Origin: Tolypothrix carrinoi HA7290-LM1
GTDB lineage: Bacteria; Cyanobacteriota; Cyanobacteriia; Cyanobacteriales; Nostocaceae
Reading direction: 5' to 3'
Length of the DNA: 40,266 nt
Assembly: GCA_019358935.1 (NCBI GenBank)
Contig: JAHHIK010000080.1
Coordinates: 1-40,266 of the forward strand
The notes under the pieces are model-generated. The model was not told the DNA's origin and made no database searches. It saw only the letters and a program-made list of their open reading frames with translations. Position numbers and translations under genes: made by a program. Positions 27,488 to 33,974 of the stretch are shown here, one piece after another; the stretch's first letter is position 1; every line of letters begins with the position of its first letter.

Positions 27488-27937
27488 TTATTTGGAATTA
27501 CTGTAACGAATAATCCAATAACTTATTGATAAAGCGAAAATGGCAATTGCCAGTCCAATTACTTCAATTCCATCGGTTTTTTCTAAATCGAGTATAATAA
27601 TTTTTCGAGATACAGCAATCAAAGAAGTTACAATAACCAACTCAACCTGAACAACGTGTTTTCGCAGATAAGCTGTGATATTTTCTAATATTTCTAAAGC
27701 AATTAAAATATTTAGAAATAAACCAAATATTTTAAATAATGTTCTGTTTATTTCACCATATGCTGTTGTAAAAAGTTCTTTAATCAGAAGCACTCCTAAG
27801 TCAAAAATCGCTACTAAAATTACCACTACCATCGCAAAAGATAAAACTTTGGAAACTATCACCTCTATGCTTTCAATGTGGTGCATAAAGTTGTCATCTT
27901 TGGTAGCTTCTTTAAATTGCCTGAATAGCTTCCACAT
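27488..27937 (-). CDS. Phosphate-starvation-inducible PsiE family membrane protein
   Basis: IALEILENI, VELVIVTSLIAVSRKII; four TM segments. Start at ATG 27937 by comparison with the partial copy starting at 29049. Confidence 0.85.
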   Translation of the reverse strand: MWKLFRQFKEATKDDNFMHHIESIEVIVSKVLSFAMVVVILVAIFDLGVLLIKELFTTAYGEINRTLFKIFGLFLNILIALEILENITAYLRKHVVQVELVIVTSLIAVSRKIIILDLEKTDGIEVIGLAIAIFALSISYWIIRYSNSK

Positions 27938-28336
27938 CTTCTGCACCCCCCTGTGAAGTAAAAAGTGAAAAGCAAAAACAAAAAAGAAAAACCCCATAGA
28001 TAAATCTATAGGATGGAAAAAGGATGCCTTACCAATTCGCGCTTTGTATTTAGAAGGCGCTTTTTTCTTGTCTTGCATATCTCAAACTAGGAGACAGTCA
28101 ATAGTCAATAATCAATAGTTACAAAAACTATTGACTATGAAATATTCACCAATTCCCCGGATCGCCAAACATATTGTGGTGTATGTCTAGCAGCTTATCA
28201 TTCTCCGGGTGGCAGTTGATAATGATTATTTGAATGCGTAATATTGATTAATACAGAACGACTTTGAGCCGCCCTGTATTTTATCTGTACTTTCGTTAAT
28301 AAATGCGTTAGATTGTCACCAAAGGTGGTAAAGATG

Positions 28337-28871
28337 TCAGCCGACACCACTGGTTAATGAGACTTGCTTAGGCAAGGTATTAACATTCATGAAGAGGGGA
28401 AAAGGGGGACGCACTGCCTCCCCTTTCCCCCTCCTGTCTGGTAATTGGCACTAGTTGTACGGCACAAGCTTTTAATTCTGGTTGCAGTGAGTCGGGGCAA
28501 GATTCTGGATGGGTGAGAGCGTTTGCTTCCGAATTTTCTGCCCACAGCGCACAGAGCGTGCATGGGGACAAAAACTGTACCGGGTGCGATCGCTCTGGTA
28601 ATTTTAGCCGGAAATTTGGATTTTCCCCGACGCGATCGCACGGACACCCACTTTGAATCTTTAATATTCAACTGTGCCGCATCACTCTTGATGAATCTCA
28701 ATAAATGGTTCCGGATGAGGAGAGCGAATTTTTTCAATGCGATCGGTGCTTTGTTTGAGTGTGCCAATGTCCGTAAAGTCTCCCAGTTGTCAGCACAAAG
28801 GGATAATCAGGATCGTCGGGTGGTTCTGCTAGTCCAAAGCAAGTGATATGCACCAAATCGAGCGCGTCCAT
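28337..28871 (-). pseudogene. narB: Degenerate 3' fragment of narB
   Basis: Aligns with 31635-32113 (GRARFGAYH...[14 protein letters not shown]) with several +1 frameshifts and a repeat insertion near 28390-28440. Confidence 0.92.
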
Positions 28872-29049
28872 ATGGTGTGCTAAAAAGTTCTTTAATCAGA
28901 AGAACTCCCAAGTCAAAAATCGCTACTAAAATTACCACCACCATTGCTACAGATAAAAGTTTGGAAACTACTACCTCTATGCTTTCAATGTGGTGCATAA
29001 AGTTGTCATCTTTAGTAGATTCTACAATTCGCTTAAATAGCCTCCGCAT
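28868..29049 (-). pseudogene. 5' fragment of a second psiE-like gene fused to the narB fragment
   Basis: KDDNFMHHIESIEV...LLIKELF is nearly identical to 27770-27937, then switches to narB sequence at [12 protein letters not shown]. Confidence 0.92.
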
Positions 29050-29124: not shown

Positions 29125-29814
29125 TTACTTGGATTGAGAAAGTTTTGTGTTTGAAAAAAGCCGCGTTACTAATTCAGCACGAGATGAAACTTCAATCTTC
29201 CGAAATATCCGTTTTAAAGCTTGCTTAACAGAATTTTCTGTAATCCAAAGTGCTGTACCGATTTCAGCATTTGTTAGTCCTTGTGCTACTAGTTCGGCAA
29301 TTTCAATTTCACGCTGGGTTAAGCGATTAATCGCCAAAGAATTAAATTCTGTGGGTTGCGACCATAATGTTGCTAACTTGGTTGATAGATGCAGGCACAG
29401 CGCACTTAAATCGGCAAGATTGCGAAGATTAAAAGCAGAAGTACCTTGAGCGCGGGTAAAGCCAACTCCGCCAACAAGACGACCATTACTGACAATTGGT
29501 CCAGCCATCACATGTCCGTGGTCAAAGCGTGGGCATATAGTCTTCCAAATACCAGAAGGTAATAACAATTCTTCATGAACTGGAGCATGATGCTCAACTA
29601 AGTAGCACAAAACCGGATTATGTTCAACAGATAAAGCCAATTTCATCATGCCCGGAATATTTGTCTGGGTAAGGGGAAGCTCATTAAATAAAAAAAGCTT
29701 TGAACGTTGGGCAACAAAATACTCACCGACTTTAACCATAACGTGCAGTCGTAATTCTTGCTCATCACTAGCATGAGCTATTGCTTCAAATAAAGACTGC
29801 AAGGAATTTGTCAT
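29125..29814 (-). CDS. LuxR-family transcriptional regulator with N-terminal GAF-like sensor domain
   Basis: C-terminal LTQREIEIAELVAQGLTNAEIG..L.ITENSVK; N-terminal HNPV..HAPVHE..CPRFDHGHVM.GPIV; no receiver domain. Confidence 0.88.
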   Translation of the reverse strand: MTNSLQSLFEAIAHASDEQELRLHVMVKVGEYFVAQRSKLFLFNELPLTQTNIPGMMKLALSVEHNPVLCYLVEHHAPVHEELLLPSGIWKTICPRFDHGHVMAGPIVSNGRLVGGVGFTRAQGTSAFNLRNLADLSALCLHLSTKLATLWSQPTEFNSLAINRLTQREIEIAELVAQGLTNAEIGTALWITENSVKQALKRIFRKIEVSSRAELVTRLFSNTKLSQSK

Positions 29815-30108
29815 CGAAAATTATGGGTAGAAACCCTGTCCTTTGAGGACGGCTTTATAAATGAAGTGCTGGTTTTTTGAACGGATATAATCCCAGGAAC
29901 CAGCAAACCCGTTTTAGTCCCCTCGCCCACCTAATCCAGAATGGCTTGGCATTACCCAACGCTTAACCAATTAAGCTTAGAGTTAATCCGGTCTGGGGAA
30001 GCAACCGGAAGTCTGTACCAGAATTAGGCTCAACAGGGCTATTCACCGCTTGCGTTGTCCCGAATTGGTTCGCTCAATCCTCGTCCCTTTTAGGGCGAGG
30101 TTGGTGAA
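29815..30108 (-). mobile_element. Non-autonomous IS200/IS605-like mini element (IscB/IsrB type) with no ORF
   Basis: Terminal hairpins CCTCGCCCTAAAAGGGACGAGG and AAGCCGTCCTCAAAGGACAGGGTTT on the minus strand; followed immediately by ATGA. Confidence 0.78.
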
Positions 30109-30128
30109 TACTGCTGCCAAGAGTACTC
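29905..30128 (-). ncRNA. HEARO/omegaRNA scaffold with 5' guide from flanking DNA; both ends approximate
   Basis: Minus strand: TTCACC..hairpin..GGTGAATAG (long-range stem); ACTTCCGGTTGCTTCCCCAGACCGGA; GGGCGAGGGGAC, whose GGGGA can pair with TCCCC as a pseudoknot. Recognised from HEARO-type motifs. Confidence 0.75.
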
Positions 30129-30167
30129 GTTCGAGGACTAGCCGTTATAACTAACTGTTCTTAGTAT
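30122..30167 (+). promoter_or_regulatory. Candidate LuxR operator and -10 box for the DUF6220 gene
   Basis: Inverted repeat AGTACTCG-TT-CGAGGACT (30122-30139, 1 mismatch), 22 bp before TAGTAT (30162-30167). Confidence 0.5.
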
Positions 30168-30239
30168 AGATTTTGTTGCGATCAAAACATTGACCCAAAC
30201 ATCAGGCTTAGTCCTAATTTCCCCAAAGAATCATCAATC

Positions 30240-30737
30240 ATGACCATAGATTTTAAGTCTGATAGCGTGCAGCCATCTGTACGCAAGTTTCAAATTGGCT
30301 TTTATTGGGTAGCCACGCTTTTCAATCTCTGCCTGATTGCCCAAGTGTTGACGGTAGGACTAGCATTCTTTCACAACCCTGAGTGGTGGAACATTCATGT
30401 TTGGCTAGTACGCGGATACGGTGGATTGACAGCGATTCTGCTTTTATGGGTGTTCTTGATTGAATTTCCACGACGAGTGCAAAGCCTTACAGCTAGTATG
30501 GCAGTACTACTGGGACTGCAATTTCTCACAATTCACCTAAATTCGCCTTTTCCTTTAGCAGTACTCCACCCACTTATCGGATTCACGCTGTTCTCTGTTT
30601 CCACAACTTTAGTTCATCGGGTGCGGCAGATGCTGTTTGCATCAAATGCTGTTGATGCCTCAGACAATATACATAGTCATTACGCAAAATCACGTATAGA
30701 ACGAACCGCAGAGTCCGCAGAGAACACAGAAAAATAA
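30240..30737 (+). CDS. DUF6220-like membrane protein
   Basis: Four TM segments; CLIAQVLTVGLAFF..WW.IH, LGLQF, VLHPLIG. C-terminal tail runs into repeat-like DNA. Confidence 0.72.
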   Translation: MTIDFKSDSVQPSVRKFQIGFYWVATLFNLCLIAQVLTVGLAFFHNPEWWNIHVWLVRGYGGLTAILLLWVFLIEFPRRVQSLTASMAVLLGLQFLTIHLNSPFPLAVLHPLIGFTLFSVSTTLVHRVRQMLFASNAVDASDNIHSHYAKSRIERTAESAENTEK

Positions 30738-31634: not shown

Positions 31635-33974
31635 TTAAGTAACAACTCCACTAGTTAATGACACTTGGTTAGGCAATTCGGTATTAAGAGCAATTGGCAC
31701 TAGTTGTACCGCACAAGCTTTTAATTCTGGTTGGAGTGAGTCGGGACAAGATTGTGGATGAGTGAGAGCGTTTGCTTCGGAATTTTCTGCCCACAGCGCA
31801 CCCCAATGCATGGGAACAAAGACTGTACCGGGTGCGATCGCTCTGGTAATTTTAGCAGGAAACTTGGATTTACCGCGACGCGATCGCACTTCCACCCACT
31901 CCGAATCTGTAATATTCAACTGTGCTGCATCACGGGGATGAATCTCAATAAACGGTTGCGGATGCATCGAGCGAATCTTTTCAATCCGACCGGTGCGGGT
32001 TTGAGTGTGCCAATGTCCGTAAAGTCTCCCAGTTGTCAGCACAAAGGGATAATCGGGATCGGGTGGTTCTGCTAGTCCTCGTGAATGATATGCGCCAAAT
32101 CGAGCGCGTCCATCTGGGGTGTGAAAGCGAAAATCGGTGTAGAGTCTTTTGGAGTTAGGTAGAGACGTTCCATCGGAACGTCTGTACAAAAGTGAGGAGT
32201 TAGGAGTTGAAGAATTTAATTCATAACTTCTAACTCCTAACTCATAACTTTCTTCTCCCCCTTCTTCTTCAAAGCTGAGAACACCTGTATCAGAATCGAT
32301 AAATATCGGCTCAGGTTTCTTTTCTGGATGGGGCCATTGAGTCGCACCTTCGGCTTGTAATTGCTCGTGACTGATACCTGTCATATCGCAGGGACGATTG
32401 GAAGTCAGTTGCACAAACTCAGTATATACTTCAGCGGAGTTTGTAAAAGAAAATTCTTTCTCAAAACCTAATCGCCGACCAACTTCGGCAAAAATTTCCC
32501 AATCTGCTTTCGCTTCTCCTAGCGGTGGGCGGAATGCTTGAGATAAGGTGACTACTCGTTCGGAGTTTGTCATCACGCCGGTTTTTTCACCCCATTGTGC
32601 TGCTGGTAACAAAACGTGAGCGTAAGCAGCGGTTTCTGTGGGATAGTAGGCGTCTTGATAGATTGTAAAAGGCGATCGCCACAATGCTTTTTTTGTCCGC
32701 TCCAAATCTGGCATACTCACAGCCGGATTAGTCGCGGCAATCCACAGTAACCCGACGTTGCCATTTTCTAACTCAGTAATCATATCCCACGCCGACAAAC
32801 CGGGGTTGGGGGAAATTTGCCCTGGTTTCAGTCCCCAAAATTCCTCAACTTCCGCTCGCTGCTGGGGATTTTTCACCGTGCGATAACCGGGTAACAGATG
32901 CGCTAAACCTCCAGCTTCTCGTCCTCCCATCGCGTTTGGCTGACCGGTCAAGGAAAAAGGTCCTGCCCCAGGCTTACCTATTTGTCCGGTCATTAAGTGC
33001 AAATTTATGATGGTTCTGACTTTAGCCGTACCTTCCGATGATTGATTTACACCCATTGACCACATCGATAGCACCCGCTGTGATTCACCCCAGTAGCGAG
33101 CTGCTGTTTCTAAATCTTCAACGCTGATACCGCATCGATGGGCTACCACGTCTGGGGAATAATGGCGAATCACCTCAGCGTATGCAGGAAAGTTGCTGGT
33201 ACAGTCTTCGATGAACGCGGGATCGATGTAATTCCAGCGCATCAATAAGTGAGCGATACCATTTAACAAGTCGATATCTGTACCAGGACGAATCGCTAAA
33301 TGTAAATCTGCGGCTTCTGCGGTTGGTGTGCGTCGGGGATCGACGACAATCATTTTCACTTTGCGATTCTTTTTGTGGTACTTCTCCAATCGGTTGAAAA
33401 TGATCGGGTGACATTCAGCCGTATTCGTGCCAATTAAAAAGGCACAGTCGGTTAACTCCAAGTCATCGTAGCAGCAGGGCGGACCATCCGCACCAAAGCT
33501 TTGAATGTAGCCAGCTACAGCACTAGACATGCATAAGCGAGAGTTGGCATCAAAGTTGTTTGTACCCAAGCAGCCTTTCATCAGTTTCTGAGCGATGTAG
33601 TAGTCCTCAGTTTGAAACTGACCGGAACCGTACATGCATAAAGCTTCTGGTCCTTGGGTAAAGCGCACAGTTTGAATGCGCTTGGTGATGAGATCAAAAG
33701 CTTCATCCCAAGTAGCGCGGCGAAACTCCTGTTCTAAGGAGTCTCGTACCATTGGGTAGCGCAATCTATTTTTATCTAAAGATTCGGCGATCGTTGCGCC
33801 TTTGACACACACCATACCTTGACTTGATGGATGCGCTTTATCCCCCCGCACCCGCCAAATTGGAGTTCCTTGGCTATCTCGATTAGTCGGTTTGCCATGT
33901 TGCGCTGGGGGCGAGACTTCTAGTCCACAGCCGACACCACAGTAAGGACAGACGGTTTTGGTAATTTCAGTCAT
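31635..33974 (-). CDS. narB: Ferredoxin-nitrate reductase
   Basis: [12 protein letters not shown] [4Fe-4S] motif, [41 protein letters not shown]. Confidence 0.97.

What the first reader, a model, noticed from the sequence alone, without database searches (positions are those of the whole stretch)
29815..30128. Protein-free HEARO/omegaRNA mini-transposon inserted exactly at the LuxR start codon
Seen: about 294 bp with IS200/IS605-type terminal hairpins and a HEARO-like scaffold on the minus strand but no RRXRR/IscB ORF. It ends ...CCCATAATTTTCG directly before ATGA, whose ATG is the LuxR start codon. Known: IscB/IsrB omegaRNAs take their 5' guide from flanking DNA and use a 3' TAM; ATGA/NTGA TAMs and standalone omegaRNAs are described. 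Inference: the guide (about GAGTACTCTTGGCAGCAGTA) targets the empty allele ...GCAGCAGTA|ATGACAAAT using an IscB/IsrB supplied in trans. The RNA also becomes the 5' UTR of luxR, so it could change that gene's translation or couple it to IscB/IsrB binding.
Basis: partly seen in the sequence, partly recalled or inferred. Interest (0 to 1): 0.8.

Follow-up and report, generated by a model that had tools for sequence, protein, structure and literature searches.

The report
Guide-RNA-only transposon at a start codon
A 294-base jumping element that carries a DNA-targeting guide RNA but no protein sits directly in front of a regulator gene; the element type is known, but its relatives in cyanobacteria sit at the start of genes unusually often, probably because that is where the host transcribes their guide without a gene being broken.

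Summary
Real. Window 29815-30108 (minus strand) is an ORF-less IS200/IS605 element (PATE) carrying an IsrB-type omegaRNA (HEARO E=1.3e-6, below gathering score) and ending at the known N|ATGA target, here the luxR ATG. The genome holds a second ORF-less copy and an apparently intact IsrB element with the same ends. All 13 close empty alleles seen carry 3 extra bases, so this junction is not strictly precise; the second copy is precise. The family is widespread in cyanobacteria, keeps both pseudoknots with compensatory changes, and has its own 3' RNA module. New here: 31 of 56 sites open a reading frame of 70+ codons (aspS, gatA, atpH, leuB among them), against 24% expected at tolerable ATGA sites and 10/49 to 15/54 for ORF-less TnpB-type elements with the same end. 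Best reading: selfish element retained where host transcripts read its guide, nicked for by IsrB in trans (inferred). No evidence that it regulates luxR. The scan noted a similar element at perR in another genome.

The parts
29815..30108 (-). ORF-less IS200/IS605 element (PATE) carrying an IsrB-type omegaRNA, 294 bp
   Evidence: empty orthologous sites; related copies
29911..30108 (-). omegaRNA scaffold with two pseudoknots; this copy keeps 73 of 76 family pairs over the whole element
   Evidence: HEARO E=1.3e-6; pair counts
30075..30108 (+). Transposon right end: guide CAAT (30075-30078), hairpin 30079-30100, cleavage motif TGAA (30105-30108); doubles as first stem of the RNA
   Evidence: sequence; TTCA-start copies have GATTG, GTCA-start copies GCTTG; pairing rule recalled from IS608 work
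29868..29911 (-). 3' RNA module of the ORF-less copies (hairpin plus short pseudoknot) standing where isrB begins in ORF-bearing elements
   Evidence: helices 10-12; absent from the C148 IsrB element
29815..29856 (+). Transposon left end: guide GAAA at +16..+19 (29830-29833) and hairpin 29834-29852; on the minus strand it is the new leader next to the luxR ATG (no Shine-Dalgarno-like motif in this copy)
   Evidence: sequence; same end on 5 elements of the genome; guide rule recalled
29811..29814 (-). Target/TAM ATGA (TCAT on the transposing strand) = luxR start codon plus one base
   Evidence: 57 of 60 family sites end at ATGA
30109..30128 (-). Predicted 20-base guide taken from the luxR leader
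   Evidence: inference from IsrB/IscB omegaRNA anatomy (PMC9581776, Meers preprint); no 10-base seed plus NTGA elsewhere in the genome
29125..29814 (-). luxR-family regulator gene, intact, 229 aa
   Evidence: 92-96% DNA identity to same-genus orthologues
30123..30138 (.). Conserved imperfect palindrome upstream of luxR, probably an operator; untouched by the insertion
   Evidence: found in 18 of 19 luxR loci examined; function inferred
30163..30168 (-). Candidate -10 box TATACT for the luxR transcript that would read through the RNA
   Evidence: visible in 10 of the 18 loci printed; not called by the sigma-70 scan; inferred
30240..30737 (+). Divergent DUF6220 membrane-protein gene

Best explanation
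A selfish, non-autonomous IS200/IS605 element that has lost isrB but keeps the guide RNA. SHOWN: boundaries, ends, ATGA target, conserved scaffold, an IsrB element with the same ends in the genome, and a family-wide excess of sites at start codons that depends on RNA orientation. INFERRED: (1) a Y1 TnpA in trans inserted it as single-stranded DNA after TCAT; (2) the luxR promoter transcribes leader, scaffold and luxR as one RNA, so the leader becomes the 5' guide; (3) IsrB made from the C148 element loads this RNA and nicks copies of the site from which the element has been excised (guide match plus ATGA), and repair from a filled chromosome restores it; (4) copies lacking read-through in the RNA sense are lost and copies inside genes are purged, so survivors pile up at start codons, the one place that is transcribed, matches ATGA and leaves the protein whole. 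luxR is a bystander.
For: Empty alleles; precise empty site of the C41 copy in 2 of 2 relatives; IsrB C148 367 aa, E=4.5e-50 to solved IsrB 8dmb with RuvC D, E and H/D motifs aligned, RRXRR only, no HNH; cyanobacterial IsrBs use an NTG TAM (PMC9581776 section 8). Covariation over 43 ORF-less copies: 95.8% of cells paired against 83.9% shuffled and 36-50% slid, 47 of 76 pairs with two-sided changes, both pseudoknots included. Start-like sites: 31/56 (end type A), 20/40 plus 3 truncated (end type B), 29/40 for other ORF-less sense omegaRNA elements and 8/15 for RRXRR-bearing ones, against 6.5% of all 60,472 ATGA and 24% of 16,290 non-genic or start-like ATGA in G000 (binomial p=5e-7) and 10/49 to 15/54 for ORF-less TnpB-type elements with the same end (Fisher p=0.004 for 31/56 vs 15/54). 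Of non-start sites, 1 of 20 IsrB-type but 8 of 14 TnpB-type have both neighbours on the opposite strand, i.e. each class is oriented so that host genes read its own RNA. No terminator-like site on the minus strand of the region.
Against: No expression, binding or nicking data. None of the 7 Y1 TnpA genes of G000 lies beside this end type (17, 78), so the cognate transposase is unidentified and the copy may be immobile. The junction lacks 3 bases present in all 13 close empty alleles. Scaffolds of ORF-less and ORF-bearing elements are interleaved in the tree, so core covariation may be partly inherited. HEARO score is below the gathering cut-off. Statistics pool related genomes, use a crude ORF proxy and one genome as background; 30 of 38 unclear loci were sorted by hand and 8 left out (6 of those 8 start-like); 59 control rows and 29 type-B rows failed my end patterns and were dropped.
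Confidence: 0.7

Rival explanations
1. Passive remnant: a deletion derivative that only needs TnpA ends; the RNA no longer guides anything, and the start-codon excess arises because TnpB-oriented elements or other positions are selected against (polarity, antisense transcription), not because the guide is used.
For: No cognate TnpA found; scaffolds may be refreshed from ORF-bearing elements; no functional data; IsrB only nicks, so homing may be weak.
Against: 195 bases of scaffold between the ends are kept, with both pseudoknots covarying and a median of 3 broken pairs of 76; an ORF-less-specific 3' module covaries (216-231: 35 GC/8 AU; 237-243: 26 AU/15 CG); the same RNA occurs with three different end types that nearly all target ATGA (46); TnpB-type elements sit at the neutral expectation rather than below it.
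Confidence: 0.2
2. Regulatory exaptation: the RNA acts as a luxR leader that changes its translation or makes it respond to IsrB binding.
For: The element lies between the conserved palindrome/-10 and the ATG and must be part of the luxR mRNA if that promoter is used; 300 structured bases could change mRNA stability.
Against: Insertion is absent from all 8 same-genus orthologous loci, so not conserved; family members sit before unrelated genes; start region predicted accessible; guide has no second target in the genome.
Confidence: 0.07
3. Targeting bias: TnpA itself prefers start-codon ATGA (single-stranded DNA near gene 5' ends).
For: All classes are above the 6.5% all-ATGA rate.
Against: Elements with the same left end and target but TnpB orientation show only 20-28% (69), which purifying selection alone predicts (24%).
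Confidence: 0.03

Closest known systems
ISC1 (IsrB) and IS605B elements of cyanobacteria with N|ATGA target, e.g. ISC1-1_MA / IS605B-1_MA (Kapitonov et al. 2016, PMC4810608; passages read)
   Same: N|ATGA target, 5'-TT/GT and CG-3' termini, end shared with oppositely oriented tnpB elements, no target duplication, mobilised in trans
   Different: No isrB ORF; a conserved RNA module in its place; the paper's main text has no occurrence of 'start codon'
PATEs that encode omegaRNA; TnpB/IscB-guided transposon retention (Meers et al., bioRxiv 10.1101/2023.03.14.532601; passages read)
   Same: Protein-free IS605 elements with omegaRNA acted on in trans; guide from outside the element needs host transcription; orientation bias to the upstream gene
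   Different: Theirs are discussed for TnpB in Geobacillus; the bias reported concerns upstream gene orientation, not insertion at the downstream start codon; partner here is a nickase
IsrB-omegaRNA (Hirano et al. 2022, PMC9581776; passages and section 8 read) and standalone omegaRNAs cited there from Altae-Tran 2021 (not held)
   Same: Two-pseudoknot scaffold, 5' guide, NTG(A) TAM, cyanobacterial orthologues active in vitro, standalone RNAs shown to work with IscB
   Different: Trans use by IsrB of a mobile ORF-less element not tested there or here
HEARO RNA, Rfam RF02033 (Weinberg 2009 not held)
   Same: Full-length model match, E=1.3e-6
   Different: 39.8 bits, under the cut-off of 83; one arm shortened; no HNH ORF

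Membership tests
IS200/IS605 PATE | Subterminal hairpins with guide/cleavage tetranucleotides at both ends | tested here: met
   GAAA/TCAT and CAAT/TGAA read from sequence, covarying start and guide; rule recalled
IS200/IS605 PATE | No protein-coding gene | tested here: met
IS200/IS605 PATE | Insertion at a fixed 4-base target without duplication | tested here: met
   57 of 60 sites at ATGA; no duplication
IS200/IS605 PATE | Scarless junction relative to the empty allele | tested here: inconclusive
   this copy differs by 3 bases from 13 of 13 empty alleles of other species or strains; C41 copy exact in 2 of 2 (52); the loss may pre- or post-date insertion
IS200/IS605 PATE | Mobilised by a TnpA in trans | tested here: inconclusive
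   7 Y1 TnpA matches in the genome, none next to this end type (78); activity not testable
IsrB omegaRNA | Scaffold at the right end with core stems and two pseudoknots | tested here: met
IsrB omegaRNA | Homology to the RNA of an isrB-bearing element | tested here: met
   141 of 190 core columns identical to C148 (72); C148 ORF is IsrB
IsrB omegaRNA | TAM-compatible site 3' of the guide match at the empty allele | tested here: met
   guide plus ATGA at the joint and in G009, G010 alleles; NTG TAM of cyanobacterial IsrBs
IsrB omegaRNA | Expressed, bound by IsrB, directs nicking | not testable with these tools
   needs RNA-seq/RIP and cleavage assay
Rfam HEARO RF02033 | Score at or above gathering threshold | tested here: not met
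   39.8 of 83 bits
Rfam HEARO RF02033 | Adjacent HNH-containing ORF | tested here: not met

The most novel reading that the evidence does not exclude
ORF-less omegaRNA elements of cyanobacteria are start-codon parasites: the ATGA target/TAM, host-driven guide transcription and an end that serves as a portable translation-initiation region let them colonise the exact start of genes, essential ones included; their specific 3' module separates or protects the guide RNA within the host mRNA, so that IsrB loading on these leaders could alter expression of many host genes.
Probability: 0.25. Interest if true: 0.75.

Novelty: new variant of a known kind. Interest (0 to 1): 0.5.

Why it matters
The single locus is an ordinary member of a described class. 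The family pattern is the useful part: two protein-free element types share one transposon end and one target but read their guide RNAs in opposite directions, and only the type needing an upstream host promoter piles up at start codons. That is a natural test of the open question whether OMEGA elements are preferentially inserted or preferentially retained at transcribed sites (posed in the Meers preprint), and favours retention. It also gives dozens of natural IsrB scaffolds, and raises how genes such as aspS, gatA and atpH are translated behind a 300-base structured leader. Searches with (IsrB, omegaRNA, standalone), (HEARO, ATGA), (IscB, PATE, non-autonomous, IS605), (IS200, insertion, start codon, Shine-Dalgarno, TnpB), (HEARO, cyanobacteria, ORF, insertion), (IscB, IS605, translation initiation, start codon) and (cyanobacteria, MITE, start codon, IS605) showed no paper reporting the start-codon excess; Weinberg 2009 and Altae-Tran 2021 and their supplements could not be seen and may mention it.

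Tried and rejected
Rfam at gathering score: nothing. Single-strand folding: not significant. First genome scan used a pattern with a wrong spacer and gave only 3 loci. Search for the exact predicted empty joint: none in 301 genomes or the metagenome collection. No RNA holder listed; contigs of the possible source run showed no joint skipping the element, which proves nothing. Idea that an AGGAG/AAGGA Shine-Dalgarno-like end explains the start-codon sites: by hand count, 10 of 19 copies with it and 22 of 38 without it are start-like, so rejected; the window copy lacks it. Idea that the guide targets another gene: no 10-base seed plus NTGA. Single origin of ORF-less copies: tree of 103 scaffolds needs at least 3 changes and the one-clade test was rejected (p-AU 3e-5), but 9 unlabelled rows are mostly ORF-less variants and only 5 rows were ORF-bearing, so inconclusive. 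An all-against-all column scan was too noisy to use. IscB as partner: the genome's IscB RNAs are the Rfam-passing type and did not match the element by blastn. Papers PMC7002104, PMC9755519, PMC13565253, PMC11448079 (passages) had nothing on start-codon insertion.

Full report
Observation. The window region 29815-30108 lies between the start of a 229-aa LuxR-family gene on the minus strand (29125-29814) and its upstream region. It has no ORF of 60+ aa. Rfam finds nothing at gathering score but a full-length HEARO match by E-value at 29911-30108, minus strand, 39.8 bits, E=1.3e-6. Searching 61 genomes with the 1.7-kb surroundings, same-genus hits break at exactly the element's limits. The 8 same-genus empty alleles read GTA ATG ATG ACA or GTA ATA ATG ACA, three bases more than the joint predicted from the window; 3 of 3 other runs laid and 2 of 2 metagenome matches agree, and the exact joint was in 0 of 301 genomes. 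The simplest history is insertion at the upstream ATGA of ATGATG with loss of one triplet before or after; this is inference.

Relatives in the genome. blastn gives a second ORF-less copy on C41 (76%, with a 40-base insert in a loop) and an ORF-bearing element on C148. The C148 ORF is a 367-aa RRXRR protein without HNH, closest to solved IsrB 8dmb (E=4.5e-50) with the RuvC motifs aligned. Its RNA shares 141 of 190 core columns with the window copy. Five elements of the genome have this left end: the two ORF-less copies, the IsrB element and two tnpB elements in opposite orientation, the arrangement described by Kapitonov et al. 2016 (PMC4810608, passages), who also give the N|ATGA target and TT...CG termini. 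The C41 copy has an exact empty site in 2 of 2 relatives and also opens a 114-codon frame. For C148 the relatives did not give a comparable empty site. Seven Y1 TnpA matches exist, none beside this end type.

Ends. On the transposing strand the target TCAT is followed by GAAA at +16..+19 and a hairpin; the right end has CAAT, a hairpin and TGAA. Both fit the IS608-type guide pairing rule (recalled), and copies starting GTCA have the matching guide change.

Family. 87 of 301 family genomes matched the element at E<=1e-10 (only 2 candidates scored per genome); an internal motif scan found 114 stretches across several cyanobacterial families. On 43 ORF-less copies (74% mean column identity), a 76-pair structure built from RNAalifold, the HEARO model and inspection has 95.8% of cells paired (shuffles 83.9%, slid 36-50%) and 47 pairs with two-sided changes, including both pseudoknots; the structure was derived from this alignment, so the counts lean towards it. 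The window copy keeps 73 of 76 pairs. ORF-less copies share a 3' hairpin/pseudoknot module where isrB would begin, absent from C148. The same RNA occurs with two other end types, nearly all at ATGA. A tree of 103 scaffolds interleaves ORF-less and ORF-bearing RNAs, pointing to recombination or repeated origin; unresolved.

Start codons. 86 rows with end type A gave 60 distinct sites, 57 at ATGA, 56 after merging one duplicate site; 31 of 56 open a frame of 70+ codons with an in-frame stop within 35 codons upstream. In G000, 6.5% of 60,472 ATGA pass the same test, and 24% of the 16,290 that are start-like or outside crudely called genes; 31/56 exceeds 24% at p=5e-7. End type B: of 72 rows 29 failed my pattern; 20 of 40 are start-like and 3 more are open to the locus end. 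A dedicated control, ORF-less elements carrying a TnpB-type 3' end on the opposite strand (121 loci; 0 of 80 with a TnpB hit of 100+ aa), gave 10 of 49, or 15 of 54 counting truncated frames; 59 rows failed the end pattern and 6 were not at ATGA; it overlaps the 31 above. Fisher 31/56 vs 15/54 p=0.004; Microcoleus records only, by hand, 15/18 vs 5/13, p=0.02. Among non-start sites, the next gene is on the same strand for 14 of 20 IsrB-type and on the opposite strand for 12 of 15 TnpB-type sites. Related genomes are not independent, so the p-values overstate.

Mechanism. IscB-type guides come from outside the element and need host transcription; Meers et al. saw a matching-orientation bias for upstream genes, left open whether by insertion or retention, and describe PATEs with omegaRNA used in trans (preprint passages). 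Cyanobacterial IsrBs nick at NTG TAMs (PMC9581776). With a shared end and target, the difference between the two ORF-less classes argues against targeting and for retention: a start-codon ATGA is transcribed from upstream, satisfies target and TAM, and leaves the protein intact. Here a conserved palindrome (18 of 19 luxR loci) and a candidate -10 lie upstream and are untouched; the scan finds no terminator-like site on the minus strand and no consensus promoter. Steps from transcription to nicking and restoration are inferred, not shown.

luxR regulation. Predicted accessibility of the start region is 0.54 with the element against 0.41-0.47 in three empty orthologues; the insertion is strain-specific; the guide has no other 10-base seed match with NTGA in the genome. 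An incidental effect on luxR level is possible, an evolved one is unsupported.

Verdict. The ORF-less family with its own 3' module and its orientation-dependent excess at start codons was not found in seven literature searches, with two key papers unavailable. New variant of a known kind, interest 0.5.

Noticed in passing
window 28380-29049 (-): Apparent rearrangement scar: ORF 28807-29049 repeats the first part of the PsiE-family gene (27488-28078) and runs into sequence matching the nitrate reductase-like gene 31635-33974 ([12 protein letters not shown] 28387-28767 repeats its C-terminal [26 protein letters not shown]), i.e. a fused partial duplication.
   Followed up: no
L140:1299-1585 (= L039) and L071:1442-1826: An ORF-less copy is followed by an isrB element's RNA; in L140 they abut, so the second guide is the end of the first element and could match other filled sites ending the same way before ATGA.
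   Followed up: partly
L219-L335: Many ORF-less IscB/HEARO-type elements, frequent in Microcoleus, share the same left end and carry two other conserved 3' tails in place of the ORF; most are at start-like ATGA.
   Followed up: partly
L059, L133, L171, L177, L181 and others: Second end type finishing ...GAGGTTTT or ...GAGGTCTT before ATGA, a Shine-Dalgarno-like motif next to the ATG; downstream frames resemble typA, ndhA, galE, ccsA (names recalled, not scanned). G000 C55 has a tnpA with this end type.
   Followed up: partly
L287: A minimal element of about 122 bases with both ends and almost no interior, at the start of a 237-codon frame.
   Followed up: no
G000:C41:56359-56694: Second ORF-less copy has a 40-base insert in the loop that forms the second pseudoknot, and an AAGGAG motif 5 bases before the ATG.
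   Followed up: partly
window 30123-30138: Palindrome conserved upstream of luxR orthologues in 18 of 19 loci, a likely operator for this LuxR family and the divergent DUF6220/rhodanese genes.
   Followed up: partly
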